Positions 422-11,251 of a stretch of DNA of 11,251 nt are shown one piece after another. The DNA comes from an uncultured Methanosarcinaceae archaeon (GTDB lineage: Archaea; Halobacteriota; Methanosarcinia; Methanosarcinales; Methanosarcinaceae): contig CAVRJG010000058.1 in assembly GCA_963721455.1 (NCBI GenBank), forward strand, positions 1 through 11,251. The letters are read 5' to 3'. Position 1 is the first letter of the stretch; every line of letters starts with the position of its first letter. Made by a program: the position numbers and the translations under genes. The notes beneath the pieces are model-generated. The model searched no databases and was not told the origin of the DNA. It saw only the letters and a program-made list of their open reading frames with translations.

Positions 422-1075
422 ATGCCATTCAAGTACTCATGCTTCATAAGCCATAGCAGTAGTAACAGCGATTTTATGAGGACATTCCTCGTGCAGCTTA
501 GAGATACTCTCCAAAGTTATATCAACCTACATTCTCCGAATTATAACAACAAAGAAGTTTATATTGACATGGATCGATTGGGCTCTGGTTGCCATTACAA
601 TGAGGAATTGTCTTGTGCTATTTGTAACAGTATTTGCATGATTGTAGTTTACACTCCGAGCTACAAACATAAAGATCATCTTTACTGTGAACGGGAGTAC
701 ATGGCAATGGAATATATAGAAAATGAACGTATCAAAATGTTGGGGGGTAGAGCTAAAAATAAAGGAATGCTCATTCCCATCATCTTTCGTGGTGATAAGG
801 AAGAAATACCTTCAAAAATTACAAATTCTATCCATTATTGTGATTTTTCAAGACTCACAACAGCTAGTCCACACATAAAAAAAATAAAGAAATGCGCTGT
901 TGAAATTGAGAAAATTGCTGAAACTATTTGTGATTACGAGAAAGCTTTTAAAGAGCGAGATATCAATCCATGTAGTGGATGTGACTCTTTTAGTCTACCT
1001 TCCGAGGAAGAAATAGAGTCATGGGAAGAAAAGTCTAGTAAACCTATATCTCCTTTTCCCGGGCGTGGGGTGTAA
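422..1075 (+). CDS. TIR domain protein (TIR_2 / FxsC-N-like)
   Basis: TIR motifs: CFISHS (betaA), VYIDMDRLGSG, LSCAICNSICMIVVYTPSY, YCEREY (putative catalytic Glu), LIPIIFRG. Ends in PFPG. Only 5 nt separate it from the next ATG. Confidence 0.85.
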   Translation: MPFKYSCFISHSSSNSDFMRTFLVQLRDTLQSYINLHSPNYNNKEVYIDMDRLGSGCHYNEELSCAICNSICMIVVYTPSYKHKDHLYCEREYMAMEYIENERIKMLGGRAKNKGMLIPIIFRGDKEEIPSKITNSIHYCDFSRLTTASPHIKKIKKCAVEIEKIAETICDYEKAFKERDINPCSGCDSFSLPSEEEIESWEEKSSKPISPFPGRGV

Positions 1076-1080
1076 TAATT

Positions 1081-4000
1081 ATGTCATCAAGTACACCTGG
1101 AGAAATAATTACTTTTTACTCGTACAAAGGTGGAACTGGGAGATCAATGGCTTTGAGTAATGTTGCTTGCATTCTCGCAGAAAGACAATCAAAAGGTAAG
1201 GGGGTTTTGATGATTGATTGGGATCTGGAGGCTCCCGGTCTTCATCGATTTTTCCATGATAAATTTAAGCGAAGATACGGGAACTCAAATGAGTCTGTGA
1301 ATGAGTTTACCCTGCATCTAGGTCTTATTGATTTATTCTTAGAGTTCGAACGTCTAACACTTAATATAAATATAGATTGTAATGGAGGATCTGAAAAAAA
1401 CGCAAATGAAGTTTTAAAAAATATTGACCTCGAAAAGTTTGTGATTGAAACTGACATTCCTCATCTTAGCTTGCTTAAGGCTGGATGCTTTGATGAAAAT
1501 TACTCTACAAAGGTTAACACCTTCAATTGGGAAGATTTGTATAATCGATCTCCTTATTTGTTTATCTCATTTGCCGAAAAATTAGTTGAGAGAGTATAAA
1601 TACGTACTGATCGATTCTCGCACGGGATATACAGATATCAGTGGAATCTGTACTTCGCTAATGCCACAGGAATTGGTAGCGGTTTTTACGCCAAATAGAC
1701 AAAATTACATGGGAATTTCAGAAATTGTTCGGGCGGCAACGGATTATCGTAGAAAATCTGAAGATTTACGTCCTCTTCTGGTTTACCCTCTTCCCTCACG
1801 CATAGAATCATCCAGAGATGATCTTCGAGCAGAGTGGCGGTTTGGAAATTCTGAAAAATTAATTAAAGGTTATCAACCAATGTTCGAGGAACTTTTTAGC
1901 GAAGTTTATGACATTTCTAATTGTAGTCTGAAGGATTATTTTGAAGATGTTCAAATTCAGCATAGTCCTGATTATGCTATGGAGAAGAAATCGCAGTAAT
2001 GGTAGAAAAAGTTGAAGACAGATTTTCACTTATCTAAAAGTTATAGAGTTTTTACAGAATGGTTACTTGAATCCAGTGCTCCTTGGCAGAGATTGAATCA
2101 AGAGGTTATCCCAAAAACAATATCAAACGTTCCTTACTCAAGGAACTTTCGTTTTACAGGGCGTGAAGATAAGTTAAAACAAATCCATGAAGCTCTTATT
2201 TCAGAGAATATAATTGTACCTCAACCCATTGCAGTGTGCGGACTCGGAGGTATTGGGAAAACACAAACTGCGGTTGAATATACCTATCGTTATTGTGATG
2301 AATACGAATTTATATTCTGGGTAAAAGCGGATTCTGAAGATTCGATAATTTCCGGTTACGTCGATATTGCAAAATTATTGGATTTACCGGTTAAAAATCA
2401 CTCCGACCAGAATAATATTGTTTCAGCTGTATTAAACTGGTTTAGAACCCACGAGAACTGGTTACTTGTTCTCGACAATGCGGATGACACTTCTTTTGTA
2501 AAGAATTATTTTCCTCCATATCCCAAAGGGAATATCCTCCTGACATCAAGAGCACAAGTTTTTGATGCGCTTGAGATTACAAAGTTGGTTGAAATGGAGG
2601 AGATGTCTCCTGAAGAAGCTAAATATTACATGCTAAAGCGTACTGGACGTGCAGATATAAATCAACAGGAAGCTGAAGCGCTTGAAAAGCTTGTTCAGGA
2701 ACTTGGTTATCTTCCTTTGGCTTTGGAAAAAGCAGGAGCCTATATTTATGCAAACAATTCCAGCTTTAAGGACTACCTAGTCAGCTATAGTAAACGTGGT
2801 CTAAAGTTATTAGGAAAATCTCTGATTGATAAGAACAAATATCCAGAGTCAATATTTGCCTCTTGGTTGATTAATTTCGAGGAGGTGAAGAATAAATCAG
2901 AAATTTCAGCAGATATCTTATTTGCAAGTGCTTTTTTGCATCCTCACGAAATCCCTTATGAAATCTTTTATAAAGGTGGGCATGAATTAGGGCCTTTAAT
3001 TTCTGCTGCATTTAATGATGTTGATACAGATCCCCTCGTTTTTGATGAAGTTCTTAAACCACTATGGCAGTACTCTTTAATCAACTGTGATGCTGGCTGC
3101 CGTACTTACGATATTAATCGCCTTGTACAGGCTGTTATCAGAGATGGAATGAAAAAAGATGAACAGTACCTATGGATTGAACGTATCATTAAAGCTATAA
3201 ACTGTGCGTTCCCTGATGTTGAGTATAAAAATTGGGAAATTTGCGATAAGCTTCTTTCACATGCTCAGACCTGTGCAGAATATATTGCACTTTGGAATAT
3301 AGAGACTGAAGAATCTGCAAAACTGCTAAATGCGACTGGCAGTTATTTACATAAGCTTGCACGTTTTAAGGAAAGCGAGTCCCTCTTGAAAGGTTCATTG
3401 GATATTCGAAAGAAATTTCTGGAATCCGGGCATTTTGAGTATTTTTGAGAGTTTCAATAATTTAGGGGAAGCTTTATAGCGATTTAGGCAGGTACTCCGA
3501 AGCAGAACCACTATTCTTGCATGCATTAGAGATTCGAGAAAATACATTAAATTCAGATGATCCAGCTATAGCAGAGAGTCTTAACAATTTAGCGAGACTT
3601 TTCAGATCTTTGGGTAGGTATTCTGAAGCTGAATCACTACATGTGCGTGCATTAGAAATTAGAGAAAACGTTTTGGAAGCCGGATGATCCAGCCATAGCA
3701 GAGAGTCTCGACAACTTAGCTGGAGTTTATAGAGATTCAGGACGACTTTCAGAAGCCGAACCACTAAGAATCCGTGCCTTGGAAATCACAGAAAAAACAC
3801 TGGCCCTGAACATCCAGATGTAAGCACTCGTCTCGACAACTTAGCTGGAGTTTATAGAGATTTTAGGGCGACTTTCAGAAGCCAAACCACTAAGAATCCG
3901 CGCCTTGGAAATCACCGAGAAAGCACTTGGTCCTGAACATCCAGATGTAGCTATTTGCCTTAACAGTCTAGCGACAGTCTACAGGGATTTGGGCAGGTAT

Positions 4001-4591
4001 TCTGAAGCTGAACCATTATATATTCGTGCCTTGGAAATCACCGAGAAAGCACTTGGTCCTGAACATCCAAATGTAGCTATCTACCTTAACAATCTAGCTG
4101 GAGTATATAGCAATTTGGGTCGATTTTCAGAAGTCGAACCATTATATATTCGTGCCTTGGAAATCACTGAAAAAACGCTTGGATCTAAACATCCAGATTT
4201 AGGTACTCGCCTTAACAATCTAGCTGGAGTGTATAGTAATTTGGGTAGATTTTCAGAAGCCGAACCATTATATATTCGTGCCTTGGAAATCACTGAAAAA
4301 GCGCTTGGCCCTGAACACCCAAAAGTAGCTGTTTGTCTTAAAAATTTGGCTATATTTTTCCATAAGCAAAGGAAGTATCTCCAGGCTAGACCTTATTATG
4401 AGCGAGCAATTGAAGTTATGGAAAAAACCATAAGAGAAAATAGTCTTGAGCTTGTTAGCCTCCTAGAAGATTATGCATCTCTGCTGAATAGTATGAAAAA
4501 AAATGAGTACGCCGTAAGAACATATAACCGCGCTAAAAGTATACGTTCAAAAATTGAAAAAGGGAAAATAAATAAGTTCAACTTATTATAA
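1081..4591 (+). pseudogene. ParA/MinD-like ATPase + NB-ARC (STAND) + TPR protein, FxsT-like, ~1,170 aa if repaired; frameshifted as given (pseudogene or sequencing errors)
   Basis: ParA-like part: TFYSYKGGTGRS, IDWDLEAPGL, YVLIDSRTG, and YA(Y)GEEIAV in a shifted frame. NB-ARC part: NVPYSRNFRFTGRE, GLGGIGKT, LLVLDNAD, LLTSR, LGYLPLAL, NRLVQ. Then 42-aa TPRs. ORFs 1081-1599, 1586-1999, 2012-3448 and 3905-4591 join through indels near 1590, 1978, 2030, 3440, 3470, 3679, 3803 and 3862. Confidence 0.85.
3320..4450 (+). repeat. Tandem 126-bp (42-aa) TPR-coding repeats, about 9 units
   Basis: cg(t/c)gccttggaaatcac recurs at 3773, 3899, 4025, 4151 and 4277, an exact 126-nt period. Consensus LNNLAGVYxxLGRxSEAEPLYIRALEITEKxLGPEHP. 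Confidence 0.9.
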
Positions 4592-4703
4592 TCTCAACAC
4601 ATATTTGATATAATATCGAGTCTCTATAATTGTTTGTTTCATCATCTGCTTTCGAAAAAATAGGGCATACCATTCAAGAGTTGCCTTCCTTAATCTATTA
4701 CCT

Positions 4704-5126
4704 TCAGTTTGACAGGGCTTTTATTATCGCTTCCGGCGTGAAATTCATAGCCCAACTTGCACTGGAATTTATTATTGCAAGCGGGGACTCACAACTCTTA
4801 TCAATTTTCACTGCAACTAACTTTTTTCTCAGCTCTTTTGCTTTGTTTACTTCCCAGTTAATCCAATTGATATCTCCAATCAATTCGGAATCTGGATGGC
4901 GCTTATTCGCTTCTCTACCTATTATCACAAGAACATATGTGGATTCATTAATTTTGATTGAAAGTCCTGCTTTTCTTCTGCCGAGGTTGTAACTGTTGAT
5001 TTCATGCGCAGATTTATCAGAGAAACTAAAATCAAAGTAAGAGTTTGCATTCCAGGCCTCTAACAGAAATTTGTAATGCTTATCGTTTTCATAGTCAAAA
5101 CTGACAAAAACTTTCTTCTTAGCCAC
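4704..5126 (-). CDS. Stand-alone TIR protein, DUF1863/MTH538 (Thoeris ThsB-like)
   Basis: KKVFVSFDYEND, STYVLVIIG, NWINWEVNKA (putative catalytic Glu), LVAVKI. GTG start preceded by GAGGT; overlaps the HD gene by 8 nt. Confidence 0.85.
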   Translation of the reverse strand: MAKKKVFVSFDYENDKHYKFLLEAWNANSYFDFSFSDKSAHEINSYNLGRRKAGLSIKINESTYVLVIIGREANKRHPDSELIGDINWINWEVNKAKELRKKLVAVKIDKSCESPLAIINSSASWAMNFTPEAIIKALSN

Positions 5127-6372
5127 TATTAACCTCTTTTATTGTGATTCCATCTTCAAAAACATCATTTATTTTTAGTAGCTTATATATCTTCTCTTTT
5201 ATTTCAGAGGAGTTACTCTCATTAAAATAGTTATCAGAGAACTCATAAATTATTTCCAAGGTATAGTTATCTATTGTTAACTTAAAGTCTGTAGAAGGAC
5301 ATTTGTTTTTGCTGTAATCCTGACCATAAAACTCTCTTTTCCATTCTTGAAGATTGTCGCACAATATCAGCAGATAAGCAATTGGATGAACTTTAGCATT
5401 AAAGGCTTCTAAGCTAAAATATTCCATCAGACCACGCTCAAAATAGTTATGTAAAAAAATTGCACTTGCCGCGTCAGCTATTGGATAATAAAAGTATGCT
5501 GGATTCCATTTTGTGCTTTTTACCAGATAGTGATACCAGCTCAGTATAACTACAGAACTGTATAGCCCATGATCGATGAAACTTCCTTCTCTCATAGTGT
5601 CTATAAACTTGTTGATATTATCGTTTACATCATCAAAATTGAGGCTGAAACTGGTAGTAATCGATTTAGAGAGAATTTCAATTGCATCACTACGGAATTC
5701 TTCTTCATAATTTGGATATTTTTCAATGAAACTGTCTTTATACTTTATATCTGGGTTTATTATCGGAAGTTTTCTAAACTCTTCAAAATTACATATTTCT
5801 AACTTTATTCTTAAATTATTGTCTTCTGTTTTAGGATAGCTGCATATAAAGGCAGCATAATTTTTTGCTTGCTCTAAAGTAATTTCTAGTGGGTATGCAA
5901 TATCATGAAACAGAGATGCAAGCCCCCAGCGATAGAAAAATTCTTCATTGTTTGTATCGTAGGAATTAGGATATTCACTTTTGTTAAGAGCATATTTTTT
6001 AAATATTTCTCTATAATTAGAGTTCTGTTCATAAATTGCTATACCGATTAAAAAGACAAAGACACTGTGAATATAATGGTCCCGCTGTTTTGGGGTCAAT
6101 CTCCCTGCTAGTTCTTCGAATGTTTTTACCTTTTCTATGAGTATTAAAAACGGATTTTCTTTTTCGTTTGTGCCTATCCAGTAGGCCTTAAAAAAAGTTT
6201 CATACACTTTATAAGCAGAATCTGTAGTCGTTGAATTTAGGAAATTACATACTGCGGCAATTATTTCTTGTTTGTATCCTTTGCCATTATGAATATCTTC
6301 ATAAATTTCCAGGTTATTAAAAAAAGAGTGAATATATTGTTCAAGGGAAGTTTTTCTTTGTTCTGATATCAT
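5119..6372 (-). CDS. HD-superfamily metal-dependent phosphohydrolase-like protein
   Basis: Ordered metal-ligand motifs RDHYIHS, ASLFHDIAYP, DHGLYSS, AIFLHN, LILCDNLQEW. Intact 417-aa ORF. Confidence 0.8.
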   Translation of the reverse strand: MISEQRKTSLEQYIHSFFNNLEIYEDIHNGKGYKQEIIAAVCNFLNSTTTDSAYKVYETFFKAYWIGTNEKENPFLILIEKVKTFEELAGRLTPKQRDHYIHSVFVFLIGIAIYEQNSNYREIFKKYALNKSEYPNSYDTNNEEFFYRWGLASLFHDIAYPLEITLEQAKNYAAFICSYPKTEDNNLRIKLEICNFEEFRKLPIINPDIKYKDSFIEKYPNYEEEFRSDAIEILSKSITTSFSLNFDDVNDNINKFIDTMREGSFIDHGLYSSVVILSWYHYLVKSTKWNPAYFYYPIADAASAIFLHNYFERGLMEYFSLEAFNAKVHPIAYLLILCDNLQEWKREFYGQDYSKNKCPSTDFKLTIDNYTLEIIYEFSDNYFNESNSSEIKEKIYKLLKINDVFEDGITIKEVNSG

Positions 6373-7179: not shown

Positions 7180-7236
7180 CCAACACGGCACGCCGGAATC
7201 TTTGTATGCGGGGTAGGGCTTGAGGTCGTGGATCAT
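7180..7236 (-). pseudogene. hsdS: Truncated N-terminus of a type I RM specificity subunit
   Basis: ATG at 7236 overlaps the upstream stop (ATGA) and reads MIHDLKPYPAYKDSGVP, like the YxxYKDSGVxWLG start of HsdS proteins. Similarity is then lost, and a stop follows at 7126-7128. This ORF is not in the supplied track. Confidence 0.75.
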
Positions 7237-8103
7237 GTATCCACCTCCGCATCCTGAATGGACTTTAGCGTATGTCCGTCAGCGGTTTTCCACTCGGTAC
7301 GGCCGTTTGCCGCTCTTCCGAGAAGCACACCAGCTGCCGTCGAAGGGGAATTAAAGGTATAGTCCTGTGTCATTTCATAGTAATGGCCGTTGTCAACAAA
7401 GACACCCTGTTCAACCAGTGAACGGCGCATGTCACTCAGGTAGGCATGAATTGATTTTGTTTCACTCTTAACTGCTTGTGAACCTGTTCGCACGACAAAA
7501 CCTGTGGTTGTCTGGTACCCTCTTGCTCTTTATATCCTTGGCGTTCAATGTGAATTCGAGAGTGGTCTGTGTGGGTGCAGGGGCTGCTTCAAAAAATCCA
7601 TATCCCAGCACTGGCAGGCAGAGCAGGATATCTGCAAGAAAACCTTCAGCTTCAGCTATATCTGCTTCTGACAGGGAAGGTGGTTGTGGAGTGTTGGCAT
7701 TGTCGAGCACACATCTTTTTGCAGTTTTTGCCAGGTCGATAAGCCGGTATTCAAGAAACTGGATGTGAGCCTTATTCAGGTTTTGATCCTTGCTTGTGAA
7801 ACCAGCTGCCTGAGTCCAGAAATCTTTATTTTTCGCGTGCTGATCCAGCCTCGGGCCAATTGGATCGCCTTCTCCCACATACACGCGGGGAAGCTGGGAC
7901 TTTTCATCTGGTCCGACCAGAATATACACCCCCGTACTTCCCAGCTCAGCACGTGAACGGGTCTCAGCAAATAGTGATCTTGGAATCACAAGCCCTCTTC
8001 CAGTCCAGTTAGACTTCTCCACAGTCTTGACGCCGTCCGGATCTCCGCCTGGGAGAAATAGGCGCACCGAGAAGGCCCTGGGTCTTTCCCTGTTATTGAT
8101 CAT
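7233..8103 (-). CDS. GIY-YIG nuclease-like + DUF4357 protein, ~290 aa, split by one frameshift near 7527
   Basis: TGVYILVG...VYVGEG...RLDQH..KDFW...LE marks the GIY-YIG part. Removing one base gives IKARGYQTTTGFVVRTGSQA and continues into DYTFNSPSTAAGVLLGRAANGRTEWK (DUF4357-like). GGAGG RBS at 8110-8114. Confidence 0.8.
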
Positions 8104-9154
8104 CGTATGCCTCCAGCCTGGCCCGTGCGGTCTTGATGGCGCGGTGCAGCCTTTCAGCCAGCAGTTCGCGGGGCGGCAGTTCTGTCAGATATTCAGCCAC
8201 ATGGATTCCTGAACGGTTCAGTTCCAGTAGCTCGATTTGTTCCTGTTTCTTTCCGGCGCAAAGGATGATCCCGAGGGGAGATTCTTCCCCTGGCTGTCTC
8301 TCATATTTGTCCAGCCAGCGCAGATAGAGTTCCATCTGGCCTTTGTATTCGGCCTTGAAATTTCCAAGCTTCAGATCGATAGCAATCAGCCTGTGCAGGG
8401 AGCGGTGATAGAAAAGAAGGTCAATATAAAAATCGTCATCATCAATCTGGATGCGCCGCTGTCTGGCTACAAAGGCAAATCCTGCACCAAGTTCCAGCAA
8501 AAAAGCTTCCAGTTCGCGCAGAATGGCGTCTTCCAGATCCTTTTCCAGATAACGGTCTTTCAAGCCAAGGAAATCGAGGACGTAGGGATCGCGGAAAACC
8601 AGTTCCGGACTCAATCTGTCCTGCTCGCGCAGGGTGGCAAGTTCGTGTTGAATTACCTCTTCCGGCTTGCGAGAAATGGCGGTGCGCTCATACAACATGG
8701 AATCAATGTGCTTTCGCAGAGTGCGCACACTCCAGCGCTCTATACGGCACATCTCAGCATAGAATTCGCGTTGAAGCGGGTCTTTTAATGGGATTAGAGC
8801 CAGGAAATGGGTCCAGCTCAATTGTCGTATCAGTGATACGATAATCTCTTCATCCGGGAATACTTCGGCAAATTGGATTATCCGGTGCAGGTTTTTCACT
8901 GAAAATCCGTTGCCATACTCAGCTGACAATTCTCGCCCCAGTGAGGCGACAATCTCCTGTCCGTATTCTGCTCTTTCCCCTCTCAGAATTTCCTCATGGA
9001 TGCGCTTACCAATATTCCAGTAGAGCATCGTCAGCCCGGCGTTAAAGGCAGTCGCCACCGCCGAACGAGTTTCTTCGATCATTTGACGAACATCGCTCAC
9101 CAGCAGGGAATTATTTAAAGCCGGCCCAATTTCCTGCTTGTCCTTGCGGATCAT
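8093..9154 (-). CDS. yhcG: DUF1016 / YhcG family PD-(D/E)XK nuclease-domain protein
   Basis: LYWNIGKRI, YGxGFSxxNL, LSWTHF, REFYAEMCRIERWSVRTL, FRDPYVLDFLGL, FLLELGAGFAFVARQ, FYIDLLFYHRSL, DLK, GQMELYL, GIILC. GGAGGG RBS and ATGA overlap with the upstream ORF. Confidence 0.92.
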   Translation of the reverse strand: MIRKDKQEIGPALNNSLLVSDVRQMIEETRSAVATAFNAGLTMLYWNIGKRIHEEILRGERAEYGQEIVASLGRELSAEYGNGFSVKNLHRIIQFAEVFPDEEIIVSLIRQLSWTHFLALIPLKDPLQREFYAEMCRIERWSVRTLRKHIDSMLYERTAISRKPEEVIQHELATLREQDRLSPELVFRDPYVLDFLGLKDRYLEKDLEDAILRELEAFLLELGAGFAFVARQRRIQIDDDDFYIDLLFYHRSLHRLIAIDLKLGNFKAEYKGQMELYLRWLDKYERQPGEESPLGIILCAGKKQEQIELLELNRSGIHVAEYLTELPPRELLAERLHRAIKTARARLEAYDDQ

Positions 9155-9517
9155 TGCTCTGTCCCTCCGGAGCTGTACTTATGAAGTTCCTTTTCAAATT
9201 TCTCGATTGTTGACAGGCTGGTAATTAGTGCAGCAAGCTGCTGCATAATTGAAAAGTCTAGCCAGGCAGCGGTAAAGGCTCTCATATACTTTTCCTTTAA
9301 TCTGGCAGATGCGGTCTGCCAAATTCCTGACAACAACTCTGTAAATTGTAGGGATGTTGTTCCCATAATTTTGGAAGTCTCTTCATGATAAACGGACGAG
9401 CTAAAATATCTCTGGCTCAATTGTCTCCTCACTGCGGAGACAATTCCCTCTTCGAATTGTCGTATCACTGATACAATAATTCCTTCACCAAATTGTCGTG
9501 ACAGTGACACTGCAATC
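8820..9517. repeat. Eight ~27-bp imperfect palindromes with AATT-like ends, each coding a 9-aa DUF1016 variable segment
   Basis: Units at 8820-8846, 8928-8954, 9223-9250, 9299-9325, 9344-9370, 9419-9445, 9455-9481 and 9491-9517. The last three have a 36-bp period. Example: AATTGTCTCC-tcactgc-GGAGACAATT, with perfect 10-bp arms. Confidence 0.85.
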
Positions 9518-9543
9518 TCTTTTCCATAGCCTGCTAGCTTCAT
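9151..9543 (-). CDS. 130-aa patchwork ORF of DUF1016 fragments (small protein or collapsed pseudogene)
   Basis: GYGKEIAVSLSRQF, IIVSVIRQF, IVSAVRRQLS, IWQTASARL, KYMRAFTAAWLDFSIMQQLAALI and SLSTIEKFEKEL all resemble DUF1016 segments. ATGA overlaps at both ends (9540-9543 and 9151-9154). Confidence 0.65.
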   Translation of the reverse strand: MKLAGYGKEIAVSLSRQFGEGIIVSVIRQFEEGIVSAVRRQLSQRYFSSSVYHEETSKIMGTTSLQFTELLSGIWQTASARLKEKYMRAFTAAWLDFSIMQQLAALITSLSTIEKFEKELHKYSSGGTEQ

Positions 9544-11251
9544 CGTTCACTTCTCCCGATGATCTCGTCCAGCAATCCTTCTGTCTCTTTCTCCAATGCA
9601 AGAATATCTGCGCGGATTTCCTCAAGCGAGCGCAGAGGCTGTGGCTTGTAGAAATAGCGGGTGAAGCTCACTTCGTAGCCTGTCTTGATGCTATTTTCGT
9701 CAATCCATGCGTCTGCGGCATGGGGCAGTACCTCACGCTGGATAAAAGCCTCGATACCACCCTGTTCGAGTAATGGAACCTGCTCAGTATCTCGTAGCTC
9801 GGTATCCGGCTCGTACTCAACCACACAGAGTTTGCCACTTACAGTAGCCTCGAAGCGACCATGCAGTGGATCGGCTTCAGCTTTTCCGGGCTTATGTACC
9901 TTTTTAATAACAGGTACTGCTGACTCATCTCGTTTGGCAAGGCTGTTCTGAAGAAGTTTGAGCTTTTTGGCAGTTAGTTTAAGTCCAGCTTTACCGGCAA
10001 GACCCTCAAAAGAAGAAAGGAAAGCATTGAAATCGTTGTGCGGGCCTGGACCAAGCTGAGCCGCCGCCGTATCGATAAGTGTGGCAAGCTGCTCTTCCCC
10101 TGCTTCGGTACAGATCTTCTGGAAGGTAACGATGGAATCCGGTTTGAGATCCACGGAAAGGCGCAGCGGCCTTTCAACTGTCACCTTCCAGTAGCCAAAA
10201 GCGGCATTTGGAAAGATCTTTGACTGCTCGGACTCCTCAAAAACGAGGAAAGTGTCGCAGATCTTCTGGATATCCTCCTCAGCCAGTTCACAGTTTTTCT
10301 TGCCCAGGTTCTTACGCAAAGGCCTGTACCACTGTGTCGCATCGATAAGCTGTACTCTGCCCTGCCTATGTTCAGGCTTGCGGTTTGTAAGAACCCAGAT
10401 ATAGGTCGCAATACCAGTGTTGTAAAACATGTTCAGGGGAAGGGCAACGATTGCCTCCAGCCAGTCATTCTCTATGATCCACCGGCGGATGTTGCTCTCT
10501 CCCTGGCCCGCATCGCCAGTAAAAAGCGACGATCCATTGTGAACTTCAGCGATCCGGCTTCCAGGTTTGGTGCCATGCTTCATTTTTGAGAGCATATTGA
10601 CCAGAAATAGCATCTGTCCGTCGCTCGAACGTGTAAGTAACGAGTACTCCGGATCACCTGCGTGCTCTATAACAAAACGAGGGTCTTTGATGCCATCTTT
10701 TCCGCCCATCCTCTCAAGGTCGCTCTTCCAGCTCTTGCCATAAGGAGGGTTTGAAAGCATAAAGTCGAACTCACGTGCCGGAAAAGCATCGTTAGCAAGG
10801 GTCGAATATTCAGGCCCGCCCACAAGGTTGTCTGCTTCGTCGCCTTCACCCTTGAGTAAAAGGTCGGCTTTGGCGATGGCATAAGTTTCGGCGTTAATTT
10901 CCTGGCCGTACAGGTGCGTAGCAACCTGCTTGCCGTGTTCCTCTGCAAGCTGCTTCAGTTCTTCTTCAGCCACGGTCAGCATACCGCCGGTTCCACATGC
11001 TCCATCGTAAAGCAAGTAGGTTCCTGACTCAATCTTGTCGGCTACTGGAAGGAAGATAAGTCGTGCCATCAGCTTTACAGCATCGCGGGGAGTCCAGTGC
11101 TCACCGGCTTCCTCATTATTTTCTTCATTGAAACGCCTTATAAGCTCCTCAAAGACAGTACCCATACCATGGTTGTCAAGGCCAGGAAGCTTCACCGATC
11201 CATTGCCATTCATAACCGGATTCGGACTCAGGTTTAGAGAAGGGTCAAGAA
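9540..11251 (-). CDS. hsdM: Type I restriction-modification N6-adenine methyltransferase subunit M (5' partial)
   Basis: GEHWTPRDAVKLM, YDGACGTGGML (motif I), LYGQE, SNPPYG (motif IV), MFYNTGIATYIW, and C-terminal EPDTELRDTEQVPL...GYEVSFTRYFY. The frame stays open to the window edge (LDPSLNLSPNPVMNG), so ATG 11213 is probably internal. Confidence 0.95.
   Translation of the reverse strand, partial: LDPSLNLSPNPVMNGNGSVKLPGLDNHGMGTVFEELIRRFNEENNEEAGEHWTPRDAVKLMARLIFLPVADKIESGTYLLYDGACGTGGMLTVAEEELKQLAEEHGKQVATHLYGQEINAETYAIAKADLLLKGEGDEADNLVGGPEYSTLANDAFPAREFDFMLSNPPYGKSWKSDLERMGGKDGIKDPRFVIEHAGDPEYSLLTRSSDGQMLFLVNMLSKMKHGTKPGSRIAEVHNGSSLFTGDAGQGESNIRRWIIENDWLEAIVALPLNMFYNTGIATYIWVLTNRKPEHRQGRVQLIDATQWYRPLRKNLGKKNCELAEEDIQKICDTFLVFEESEQSKIFPNAAFGYWKVTVERPLRLSVDLKPDSIVTFQKICTEAGEEQLATLIDTAAAQLGPGPHNDFNAFLSSFEGLAGKAGLKLTAKKLKLLQNSLAKRDESAVPVIKKVHKPGKAEADPLHGRFEATVSGKLCVVEYEPDTELRDTEQVPLLEQGGIEAFIQREVLPHAADAWIDENSIKTGYEVSFTRYFYKPQPLRSLEEIRADILALEKETEGLLDEIIGRSER

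What the first reader, a model, noticed from the sequence alone, without database searches (positions are those of the whole stretch)
8820..9517. Array of protein-coding 27-bp palindromes, each encoding a different version of the YhcG variable segment: candidate new diversification or recombination system
Seen (+ strand, with - strand peptide): 8820 AATTGTCGTATCAGTGATACGATAATC (IIVSLIRQL) and 8928 AATTCTCGCCCCAGTGAGGCGACAATC (IVASLGREL) inside yhcG. Upstream: 9223 AATTAGTGCAGCAAGCTGCTGCATAATT (IMQQLAALI), 9299 AATCTGGCAGATGCGGTCTGCCAAATT (IWQTASARL), 9344 AATTGTAGGGATGTTGTTCCCATAATT (IMGTTSLQF), 9419 AATTGTCTCCTCACTGCGGAGACAATT (IVSAVRRQL), 9455 AATTGTCGTATCACTGATACAATAATT (IIVSVIRQF), 9491 AATTGTCGTGACAGTGACACTGCAATC (IAVSLSRQF). 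Length, codon phase and AAT ends are near-constant, and five share a CA(C/G)TG centre. Interiors differ but keep dyad symmetry, implying selection on DNA/RNA structure. Inference: (a) a donor library swapped into yhcG to change specificity, (b) recombination sites sized like tyrosine-recombinase/dif sites or hairpin substrates, or (c) operators bound by YhcG, whose variable helix would be encoded by its own site. I know of no description of this, but cannot search the literature.
Basis: partly seen in the sequence, partly recalled or inferred. Interest (0 to 1): 0.88.

Follow-up and report, generated by a model that had tools for sequence, protein, structure and literature searches.

The report
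Conserved hairpin inside YhcG nuclease genes
The palindromes are real copies of a short hairpin-forming element that sits at one fixed spot in YhcG/DUF1016 defence-nuclease genes from archaea to E. coli, while the upstream "array" looks like leftovers of older gene copies, not a shown diversification library.

Summary
Observation confirmed: 6 of the 8 units are strong hairpins and 2 are weak. The window comes from a Methanosarcina genome.

The in-gene palindrome is not a local oddity. In 52 distinct DUF1016_N gene sequences (archaea plus 7 bacterial phyla), a dyad centred on the first base of the 6th codon before a conserved Trp is 80.8% Watson-Crick. Shifted centres give 14-38% and synonymous resamples give 45%. 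The sequences differ between genes, so the pairing covaries.

In 65 close relatives, synonymous variation drops at only two places, and these are the two palindromes. E. coli K-12 yhcG has three tandem units.

The upstream small ORF is a patchwork of deleted DUF1016 gene pieces from three subtypes. What survives in it is mostly hairpin units.

I found no sign of unit exchange with the gene, and no recombinase or reverse transcriptase in the window.

The function is inferred, not shown. My best guess is a single-strand hairpin, probably in the mRNA, that YhcG itself reads for self-control. A recombination hot spot is the main rival.

No paper or Rfam family that I could search describes this.

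The parts
8093..9154 (-). yhcG-type gene (353 aa): DUF1016_N domain plus YhcG_C PD-(D/E)XK nuclease domain; PADLOC candidate defence gene PDC-S02
   Evidence: Pfam PF17761 1.1e-47 and PF06250 1.1e-49; PADLOC PDC-S02 2.5e-135
8820..8846 (-). 'Motif 2' hairpin unit inside yhcG (peptide IIVSLIRQL). Its dyad centre is the first base of the 6th codon before the conserved Trp. This is the family-wide element.
   Evidence: 11 of 13 pairs; RNA fold z -2.9; 0 of 300 synonymous resamples reach it; same position in 52 distinct genes
8928..8954 (-). 'Motif 1' hairpin unit inside yhcG (peptide IVASLGREL), 108 nt upstream of motif 2. It is palindromic in this gene subtype only.
   Evidence: 10 of 13 pairs; z -3.95; 48 of 64 distinct motif-1 27-mers in relatives have at least 9 of 13 pairs; trough in synonymous variation
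9151..9543 (-). Small ORF (130 aa) between hsdM and yhcG, joined to both by ATGA stop/start overlaps. It is a patchwork of internally deleted DUF1016 gene pieces.
   Evidence: No Pfam family. Residues 4-30 match yhcG residues 62-112 with a 24-residue gap. Residues 85-108 and 99-130 match residues 113-136 and 345-377 of another DUF1016 subtype, E 1e-7 and 1e-6. 96% identical copy in one other species.
9491..9517 (-). Weak unit (IAVSLSRQF) with a motif-1-like left flank (YGKEI)
   Evidence: 9 of 13 pairs; z -1.0
9455..9481 (-). Unit (IIVSVIRQF), near-copy of the in-gene motif-2 unit
   Evidence: 11 of 13 pairs; z -3.45; 88% match to 8820-8852
9419..9445 (-). Unit (IVSAVRRQL), the strongest in the window
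   Evidence: 12 of 13 pairs; z -5.2; the same type occurs in other Methanosarcina genomes
9344..9370 (-). Degenerate unit (IMGTTSLQF), probably the partner of 9299 in an E. coli-YhcG-like tandem (inferred)
   Evidence: 8 of 13 pairs; z -1.25; layout compared with the E. coli yhcG tandem, inference
9299..9325 (-). Unit (IWQTASARL) of the subtype seen in E. coli K-12 YhcG (IWQTLSAKS)
   Evidence: 10 of 13 pairs; z -5.1; E. coli unit seen
9223..9250 (-). Unit (IMQQLAALI), a decayed motif-2 hairpin of the 'IVQQLAAQI' DUF1016 subtype. It is followed directly by that subtype's C-terminal tail.
   Evidence: 7-bp stem; z -2.7; BLASTP to L026 residues 113-136
9540..11213 (-). Type I restriction-modification methylase (hsdM-like), the upstream gene of the operon
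   Evidence: Pfam N6_Mtase 6e-52; hsdM model below its cut-off
7233..8103 (-). Split PDC-S14-type gene downstream of yhcG: 7468-8103 plus a DUF4357 fragment at 7233-7493
   Evidence: PADLOC PDC-S14 3e-71; DUF4357 3e-22; homologues in relatives are 289-316 aa

Best explanation
What it is (shown). The 27-bp palindromes are copies of a hairpin-forming element that is an integral part of DUF1016/YhcG genes.
- One unit ('motif 2') always lies with its dyad centre on the first base of the 6th codon before a conserved Trp of the N-terminal domain.
- The subtype in this window has a second unit 108 nt upstream ('motif 1').
- Some genes carry 2-3 tandem units, 36 or 39 nt apart.
- The base pairing is kept while the sequence, and therefore the peptide, changes. 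So the nucleic acid constrains the protein here, not the reverse.
- The upstream 'array' (9151-9543) is a patchwork of earlier DUF1016 genes of three subtypes, deleted down to their hairpin units plus one C-terminal tail. It has stayed in frame, so hsdM, the remnant ORF and yhcG remain linked by ATGA overlaps.

How it works (inferred). The element acts as a single-strand hairpin, most likely in the mRNA. The one factor that always travels with it is the YhcG protein, so I propose that YhcG binds it to hold its own synthesis or activity in check. Extra leader units would then add more of the same ligand.
For: Family-wide dyad:
- 56 genes gave 52 distinct sequences.
- 80.8% Watson-Crick pairing over k=1-10 at the fixed centre.
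- 13.7-37.7% at centres shifted by 1-6 nt.
- 45.3 +/- 1.8% (maximum 51%) in 500 synonymous resamples.
- 3-4 pair types at most positions k=2-9.

Per-gene tests:
- 32 of 38 archaeal ORFs beat their own synonymous resamples at p<=0.05.
- 11 of 11 plasmid genes with the Trp motif, from 7 bacterial phyla, do so at p<=0.023. In 10 of the 12 genes fetched, this is the strongest hairpin of the whole gene.

Close relatives (70 of 80 loci parsed):
- Positions k=5, 6 and 7 are 84, 96 and 96% paired, with 3 pair types each.
- The Val wobble base (GTC/GTT/GTG) tracks the second base of the codon five positions downstream (CGA/CAA/GCA).

Synonymous variation in 65 genes is low at only two places, which are the two palindromes. 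Relative codon entropy there is 0.00-0.54 at the conserved I, V, L, R and Q codons, against a gene mean of 0.80.

E. coli K-12 yhcG: the strongest hairpin in the gene has a 13-bp stem at this position, and there are three units 39 nt apart.

The element survives transfer between domains. Methanosarcina and bacterial proteins are 64-74% identical and both keep it. This argues for a self-contained or universal reader.

Non-coding orphan arrays keep perfect 13+1+13 palindromes while their flanks carry stops and frame changes.

Patchwork nature of the small ORF.

Covariation favours base pairing over duplex read-out by a dimer, because there are at least 27 interior 4-mers among 55 motif-2 units.
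Against: - Nothing here shows binding, expression or any effect of the hairpin.
- RNA versus DNA is unresolved. Wobble-compatible G-T mismatches are not significantly commoner than A-C on the sense strand: 9 v 6, and 11 v 7 and 12 v 6.
- Positions k=3 and k=4 pair only 59-71% and 39-62% of the time.
- A 12-bp hairpin about 300 nt inside an ORF is an unusual place for an autogenous operator.
- The N domain has no structural relative that would suggest RNA binding.
- 6 of 38 archaeal ORFs lack a significant hairpin at the fixed distance. In two of them (L044, L045) it sits further upstream behind an insertion.
- The sequences are related, so resampling p-values overstate independence.
Confidence: 0.4

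Rival explanations
1. DNA-level recombination or rearrangement hot spot. The palindrome extrudes as a hairpin or cruciform. It is cut or stalled at, possibly by the junction-resolvase-like YhcG nuclease itself. This promotes gene conversion, deletion and tandem duplication, which shuffle the N-terminal (specificity?) domain among DUF1016 alleles.
For: - The N domain is a mosaic cassette between close species. The flanks are 95-100% identical and the inner block 62-80%.
- Against two relatives the window gene's similarity breaks at the 3' edge of the motif-1 palindrome. Against four others it changes at the motif-2 palindrome.
- All internal deletions in the small ORF abut palindromes.
- A 92-nt indel between two orthologous arrays ends at palindromes.
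- A metagenome contig lacks 9156-9403.
- Some palindromes have arms of two different types.
- Motifs 1 and 2 of the same gene are more alike than shuffled partners: 13.24 v 11.46 +/- 0.23 of 19 positions, with 0 of 2000 shuffles reaching the observed value.
- 36/39-nt tandem units recur in unrelated lineages.
- Kosinski et al. 2005 (PMC1189080, passages read) place the nuclease domain near Holliday-junction resolvases.
Against: - The 3' breakpoints (+141, +165, +237) and several 5' ones are not at palindromes.
- Breakpoints in conserved stretches are expected from ordinary homologous recombination.
- Evolvability is weak selection for keeping a near-perfect stem in nearly every gene across two domains.
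- Orthologous arrays are stable between species.
- No rearranged reads could be examined. Only metagenome contigs were available.
Confidence: 0.25
2. Duplex operator. A dimeric protein (YhcG's N domain or a host factor) binds the double-stranded palindrome to repress or roadblock transcription.
For: - Dyad symmetry is present, with conserved outer arms (ATTGTC/GACAAT) and a conserved CA-N-TG centre in the subtype of the window.
- Two in-gene sites lie 108 bp apart. That is about ten helical turns, which is my own arithmetic.
- There are no strand-specific wobble signals.
Against: - The interiors vary widely while keeping their pairing (at least 27 interior 4-mers in 55 units). That would need as many co-changes in protein specificity.
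- If those bases are not read, their symmetry is unexplained.
- Other subtypes share no arm sequence at all.
- No DNA-binding fold was recognised.
Confidence: 0.1
3. Self-perpetuating quasi-palindrome with no function. Template switching during replication copies one arm onto the other, so an ancestral palindrome stays symmetric while it drifts.
For: - Arms evolve in concert.
- Perfect palindromes persist in decaying, non-coding remnants.
- There is no strand asymmetry.
- The mechanism itself is recalled from the literature on quasipalindrome mutagenesis, not from any call.
Against: - It does not explain the fixed codon position in all subtypes.
- It does not explain the conserved centre and closing pair (k=2 is C-G in 54 of 55 units).
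- It does not explain why other genes do not behave so. Only 3 loci in the 3.9-Mb genome carry such units.
- Between two species the few substitutions seen in units break the symmetry and are not corrected.
Confidence: 0.1
4. One reading: the upstream units are silent donor cassettes that are copied into yhcG to change its specificity.
For: - Units of several types lie next to the gene.
- Unit 9455 is nearly identical to the in-gene unit.
- In one relative, the leader and in-gene 27-mers are identical (L018).
Against: - The units share only the 27 nt with the gene, not the flanks.
- Type matches occur at the chance level. About 3 of 8 loci match, by my reading.
- The closest relative has the same array but a different in-gene unit.
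- The array is rare outside Methanosarcina. At the strict CA-N-TG criterion, extra units outside the gene's two positions appear in only a few of the 72 bacterial loci, two of them of the clear family type (L091, L102).
- No recombinase or reverse transcriptase is encoded nearby.
Confidence: 0.05

Closest known systems
Protein-coding palindromes: Rickettsia palindromic elements, seen only as a passage and reference list in PMC4316617, and coding palindromes of Nematomorpha mitochondria, PMC6649704 (abstract in the listing)
   Same: Hairpin-forming inverted repeats lie inside open reading frames and are translated. The nucleic-acid symmetry shapes the peptide.
   Different: Those are long (about 100-284 bp) and scattered over many unrelated genes of one lineage. 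Here a 19-33-nt unit sits at one fixed codon position of one gene family across archaea and bacteria, and it covaries.
Type III toxin-antitoxin systems such as ToxIN (recalled, not from a call): tandem 36-nt RNA repeats upstream of a defence nuclease gene, acting as RNA antitoxin
   Same: There are tandem units with a 36-nt period directly upstream of a candidate defence nuclease, and they are co-transcribed by layout.
   Different: The units here are not identical repeats and were not called by Tandem Repeats Finder. They are simple hairpins, they also lie inside the nuclease ORF, and the nuclease is PD-(D/E)XK, not ToxN-like. The leader units are gene remnants.
REP/BIME extragenic palindromes (PMC3733652, abstract in the listing)
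   Same: They are 20-40-bp palindromic units, sometimes clustered, lying between genes of an operon.
   Different: REPs are high-copy, extragenic and tied to RAYT transposases. Here there are only 3 loci in the genome, all tied to DUF1016 genes or their remnants, and the core copy is coding.
Autogenous operators in mRNAs, where a protein binds a hairpin of its own message, as for phage T4 gp43 or MS2 coat/replicase (recalled)
   Same: This is a small conserved hairpin in a message whose most plausible reader is the encoded protein.
   Different: Known operators sit at the ribosome-binding site. This one lies about 100 codons into the ORF, and binding is not shown.
Structure-initiated cassette recombination, such as the Neisseria pilE/pilS system with its G-quadruplex (recalled), and hsdS shufflons of type I restriction systems (recalled)
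   Same: A variable domain of a surface or defence protein, a nearby DNA secondary structure, gene fragments nearby, and a type I restriction-modification setting.
   Different: There are no long silent cassettes, no recombinase, and no evidence of switching. The fragments are 27-40 nt.
Defence systems triggered by palindromic phage DNA (DdmABC, PMC11707656, title and abstract in the listing)
   Same: It links a defence system with hairpin or cruciform-forming DNA.
   Different: There the palindromes are in the invader. Here they are in the defence gene itself, and the proteins are unrelated.

Membership tests
DUF1016 / YhcG family (Pfam PF17761 + PF06250) | N-terminal DUF1016_N domain and C-terminal YhcG_C PD-(D/E)XK nuclease domain, both above Pfam's gathering scores | tested here: met
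   162.0 bits (cut-off 32.8) and 168.7 bits (cut-off 32.5)
PADLOC phage-defence candidate PDC-S02 | Match to the PDC-S02 protein models | tested here: met
   2.5e-135 over residues 12-348. Defence activity itself was not tested, and I read no paper that assays it (listing only).
Type I restriction-modification operon context | hsdM, hsdS and hsdR genes around the insert | tested here: inconclusive
   hsdM-like methylase is present. There is no hsdS or hsdR in this 11-kb contig. Relatives have hsdS downstream.
Type III toxin-antitoxin (ToxIN-like) | Array of near-identical direct RNA repeats upstream of the toxin gene | tested here: not met
   No tandem repeat was called in 8800-9550. The units differ in sequence and come from different gene subtypes.
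Type III toxin-antitoxin (ToxIN-like) | Toxin is a ToxN/AbiQ-type endoribonuclease that cuts the repeats | tested here: not met
   The protein is PD-(D/E)XK. Fold matches are Cas4, MGME1, NucS and XisH, all weak. Cleavage is not testable here.
REP/BIME elements | Many dispersed extragenic copies in the genome | tested here: not met
   Only 4 family-type hits at 3 loci in 3.9 Mb. 43 sites in 22 of 59 genus genomes, against 3 control hits.
CRISPR array | Constant repeats alternating with variable spacers of similar length | tested here: not met
   The units vary, the linkers are 9 nt, and no repeat family was found.
Diversity-generating retroelement or recombinase-driven shufflon | Reverse transcriptase with template/variable repeat pair, or a site-specific recombinase next to the sites | tested here: not met
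   No RT or recombinase domain in any ORF of the contig that was scanned. Some bacterial homologues do lie next to integrases.
Known RNA families (Rfam 15) | Match to a curated covariance model | tested here: not met
   0 matches at E<=1 in 8000-9700 on both strands

The most novel reading that the evidence does not exclude
The hairpins are an RNA antitoxin written into the toxin's own message. YhcG is a structure-sensing nuclease whose N domain is kept occupied by the hairpin(s) of its own transcript, plus leader copies where present. When a phage shuts off host transcription, the ligand decays and the nuclease is freed. Because the ligand is encoded by the same bases as part of the domain that binds it, protein and ligand can never be separated by recombination or transfer. 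That would explain why the element survives transfer between archaea and bacteria.
Probability: 0.12. Interest if true: 0.92.

Novelty: new variant of a known kind. Interest (0 to 1): 0.8.

Why it matters
DUF1016/YhcG is a very widespread family of uncharacterised nucleases. It occurs in defence islands, plasmids, ICEs and phages, and it is listed as defence candidate PDC-S02. No function or ligand is known for its N-terminal domain.

A hairpin kept at one codon position across two domains of life is one of the clearest cases of a nucleic-acid structure dictating a protein sequence. Three things show it:
- compensatory changes in the stem;
- a Val wobble base that tracks an amino acid five residues downstream;
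- synonymous constraint confined to exactly these sites.

It gives the family its first concrete, testable handle, and E. coli K-12 carries a three-unit version. It also warns annotators that short "ORFs" next to such genes can be in-frame patchworks of gene remnants.

Tried and rejected
- Programmed frameshift: four split yhcG copies in the genus looked as if they broke at one place. The alignment shows different lesions (2-nt deletion, 1-nt deletions, 1-nt insertion), so they are ordinary pseudogenes.
- Strand test for RNA: G-T versus A-C mismatch counts are not significant in any set.
- Selection on orphan arrays: G008 and G067 arrays are too alike (about 94%). By my count there are 4 substitutions in about 155 nt of palindromes and about 25 in about 390 nt of spacers. 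This is suggestive only.
- Sequencing runs: no RNA holder was listed, and only metagenome contigs hold parts of the stretch. Laying four of them gave one credible deletion variant (9155->9404, side 56). It also gave one joint (8851->9491, side 28) that is probably a cross-match between palindromes. Neither says anything on expression.
- Structure: the AlphaFold2 model has mean pLDDT 73. Foldseek gave no hit at E<=0.001, and all the weak hits are PD-(D/E)XK nuclease-fold proteins. Sequence search of the PDB gave nothing. The ESM Atlas gave no usable hit.
- A homodimer prediction was considered and not sent, because the report does not rest on dimerisation.
- Literature: six searches. I read passages of PMC4316617 and PMC1189080 and saw all other papers only as listings. 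None links DUF1016, YhcG, COG4804 or PDC-S02 to a palindrome or hairpin. One search was badly constrained and returned no yhcG paper. Subscription journals and supplementary files were not searchable, so prior description cannot be excluded.
Full report
**The window and the observation**

The contig is a defence island of a Methanosarcina genome. The genus name comes from the record titles of the closest loci. On the - strand lie three linked genes:
- an hsdM-like methylase (9540-11213);
- a 130-codon ORF with no Pfam family (9151-9543);
- a DUF1016_N + YhcG_C nuclease gene (8093-9154).

The three are joined by ATGA stop/start overlaps.

- Six of the eight are strong hairpins: 10-12 of 13 pairs, or a 7-bp perfect stem for 9223, with RNA-fold z from -2.7 to -5.2.
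- Units 9344 and 9491 are weak.
- Six of the 15 best hairpins of the whole window fall in 8821-9482.
- Synonymous resampling of the small ORF never reaches the observed four hairpins (0 of 300, mean 0.32).

**The element belongs to the gene family, not to this locus**

In the genome itself, units of this kind occur at only three places:
- the window;
- a second, frameshifted DUF1016 gene (C53);
- a pair of units behind an hsdR-like gene end (C73).

In 59 genomes of the genus, the pattern AATTGTC-N13-GACAATT occurs 43 times in 22 genomes, against 3 hits for the reversed control. Nearly all interiors are themselves palindromic.

I then took DUF1016_N genes from 201 genomes of the same (archaeal) phylum, of which 32 had a match. 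I aligned them by codon.
- In 32 of 38 ORFs, the 42 nt before a conserved Trp codon hold a hairpin that beats 300 resamples of the gene's own synonymous codons at p<=0.05.
- The six that do not are two genes with insertions (L044, L045, where a palindrome lies further upstream), L034, L037 and two fragments.

Twelve plasmid genes from Planctomycetota, Bacteroidota, Actinomycetota, Cyanobacteriota, Deinococcota, Bacillota and Pseudomonadota gave the same result.
- All 11 with the Trp motif pass at p<=0.023.
- In 10 of the 12, this is the strongest hairpin in the gene.

Pooling 56 genes gave 52 distinct sequences.
- The dyad centre is always the first base of the 6th codon before the Trp.
- 80.8% of positions k=1-10 are Watson-Crick.
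- Shifting the centre by 1-6 nt gives 13.7-37.7%.
- 500 synonymous resamples give 45.3 +/- 1.8% (maximum 51%).

The stems differ completely between subtypes. The peptides include FVQEVLAQI, KLQPLVAEI, KLAQLVREI, DLPQPVAEI, HALRDEL, IGYTVCSGL and IVSALRRQL. So this is covariation, not conservation.

**Fine structure in the subtype of the window**

Eighty close relatives were fetched. Eight are Methanosarcinaceae or related archaeal records at 82-93% identity. The rest are bacteria of many phyla at 64-74%, which implies transfer between domains. Seventy of the 80 could be parsed.

- Both conserved helices of the N domain (motif 1 and motif 2, centres 108 nt apart) are encoded by 27-nt palindromes of the form RATTGTS-NNNN-CA-C-TG-NNNN-SACAATT.
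- In motif 2, positions k=5, 6 and 7 are 84, 96 and 96% paired, with three pair types each.
- k=7 pairs the wobble base of a Val codon with the second base of the codon five positions downstream: GTC with CGA, GTT with CAA, GTG with GCA.
- k=3 and k=4 are looser.

The two units of one gene resemble each other more than units of different genes do: 13.24 against 11.46 +/- 0.23 of 19 positions, with 0 of 2000 shuffles reaching the observed value.

A profile of synonymous codon diversity over 65 genes has a mean of 0.80 and only two troughs. These are exactly the two units. Rfam has no family for the region.

**Tandem units occur inside working genes**

- E. coli K-12 yhcG (b3220) carries three units 39 nt apart (IHQTMSGEL, IPQTPSAEF, IWQTLSAKS). 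The last has a perfect 13-bp stem and is the strongest hairpin of the gene.
- A Parabacteroides gene and one archaeal gene have two units 36 nt apart.
- So the 36-nt spacing of units 9419, 9455 and 9491 is a recurrent layout and not a peculiarity of this window.

**What the upstream array is**

The small ORF is a patchwork.
- Residues 4-30 match yhcG residues 62-112 with the 24 residues between motif 1 and motif 2 deleted.
- Residues 85-108 match residues 113-136 of another DUF1016 subtype ('IVQQLAAQI', E 1e-7). Residues 99-130 match that protein's last 33 residues (E 1e-6). About 210 codons after its hairpin are therefore gone.
- Unit 9299 (IWQTASARL) is of the E. coli subtype.
- PADLOC gives weak PDC-S02 hits for the same stretches.

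Across the genus I saw three settings:
- the in-gene units;
- leaders between hsdM and yhcG with one to three units;
- orphan arrays of two to eight units behind hsdR or hsdM ends, with no yhcG.

The orphan arrays are non-coding, with stops and changing frames. Yet many of their units are perfect 13+1+13 palindromes. Orthologous orphan arrays of two species keep the same unit order at about 94% identity. They differ by one 92-nt indel whose ends lie at units.

A 96% identical copy of the small ORF exists in one other species, and a similar ORF in another. A wetland metagenome contig lacks 9156-9403. Outside Methanosarcina, extra units near the gene are rare. At the strict CA-N-TG criterion only a few of the bacterial loci show one outside the gene's two positions, two of them of the clear family type, L091 and L102.

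**Mosaic N domain**

- Between the window and its closest relative, hsdM, the array, the first 60 nt of yhcG and the whole nuclease domain are 95-100% identical. The DUF1016_N part (about 9110-8600) is only 62-80% identical.
- Against two other species, the break is at the 3' edge of the motif-1 unit. Against four more, similarity rises right after the motif-2 unit.
- A two-breakpoint scan of 12 informative pairs puts 5' ends at -255, -153/-150, -117, -81 and +42, and 3' ends at +141, +165 and +237/240, relative to motif 2.
- So the units lie inside the exchanged cassette. Only some ends touch them.

**Mechanism**

Shown: a base-paired element under purifying selection, tied to one gene family, portable between domains, and able to multiply in tandem.

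Inferred: because the pairing covaries through at least 27 interior variants, the active form is a hairpin or cruciform rather than a duplex read by a dimer.

- I favour an mRNA hairpin bound by YhcG for self-control of a potentially toxic nuclease (confidence about 0.4 for the whole statement).
- The main rival is a DNA hot spot for recombination (0.25). It is supported by the junctions, the mosaic, the concerted evolution of the two units, and the reported kinship of the nuclease domain to Holliday-junction resolvases (PMC1189080, passages read).
- My own fold search gave only weak hits (Cas4, MGME1, NucS/EndoMS, XisH), none at E<=0.001.
- The strand test that could separate RNA from DNA is not significant.

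**Novelty**

Searches for DUF1016, YhcG, COG4804 or PDC-S02 together with palindrome or hairpin terms found no paper that connects them. Supplements and subscription journals were not available.

The nearest known things are:
- protein-coding palindromes of Rickettsia and of Nematomorpha mitochondria;
- REP elements;
- type III toxin-antitoxin repeats;
- autogenous mRNA operators.

The defining features of the middle two were tested and not met. I rate it a new variant of a known kind: a structured nucleic-acid element overlapping a coding sequence. It could be something more unusual if the protein reads the hairpin that encodes it.

Noticed in passing
window 422-6372: The rest of the contig is a defence island. 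It holds a TIR-domain gene (422-1075), a ParA/MinD-like ATPase split into two ORFs (1081-1999), and an NB-ARC + TPR STAND-type gene (2012-4591) with 126-nt tandem TPR repeats. It also holds a ThsB-like TIR gene (4704-5126) overlapping a 417-aa gene (5119-6372) with no Pfam, NCBIfam or PADLOC match. That last gene could be an unknown Thoeris-type effector.
   Followed up: partly
window 7233-8103: The PDC-S14-type gene downstream of yhcG is broken into a 211-aa N part and an 86-aa DUF4357 part. Homologues in relatives are 289-316 aa. No hsdS follows, unlike in relatives.
   Followed up: partly
L081-L160: The yhcG protein of this archaeon is 64-74% identical to proteins of Verrucomicrobiota, Latescibacterota, Desulfobacterota, Planctomycetota, Cyanobacteria, Chloroflexi, Nitrospirae and Proteobacteria. 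This points to recent gene transfer between domains.
   Followed up: no
window ~8600-9110, and L013, L051, L054, L066: The DUF1016_N domain behaves as an exchangeable cassette between species whose flanking DNA is nearly identical. It resembles the target-recognition domains of HsdS, which hints that it is the specificity module.
   Followed up: partly
L128 1501-2917: In one Planctomycetota gene the two hairpin units are 421 nt apart instead of 108, and the protein match is about 400 nt longer. Something has been inserted between the two units.
   Followed up: no
G000:C53:168082-168490 and G000:C73:28895-28958: The same genome holds a second yhcG copy with a 2-nt deletion between the two units. 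It also holds an orphan pair of units 36 nt apart, directly behind an hsdR-like gene end.
   Followed up: partly
plasmid hits H2-H6: On IncA/IncP-type enterobacterial plasmids and a Singulisphaera plasmid, the DUF1016 gene overlaps or adjoins a tyrosine integrase gene. This recurrent pairing could bear on the recombination rival.
   Followed up: no
table: Many genomes carry tandem DUF1016 genes and isolated half-domain fragments (profile positions 1-60 or 66-137). The ends of these fragments cluster around the two hairpin positions.
   Followed up: no
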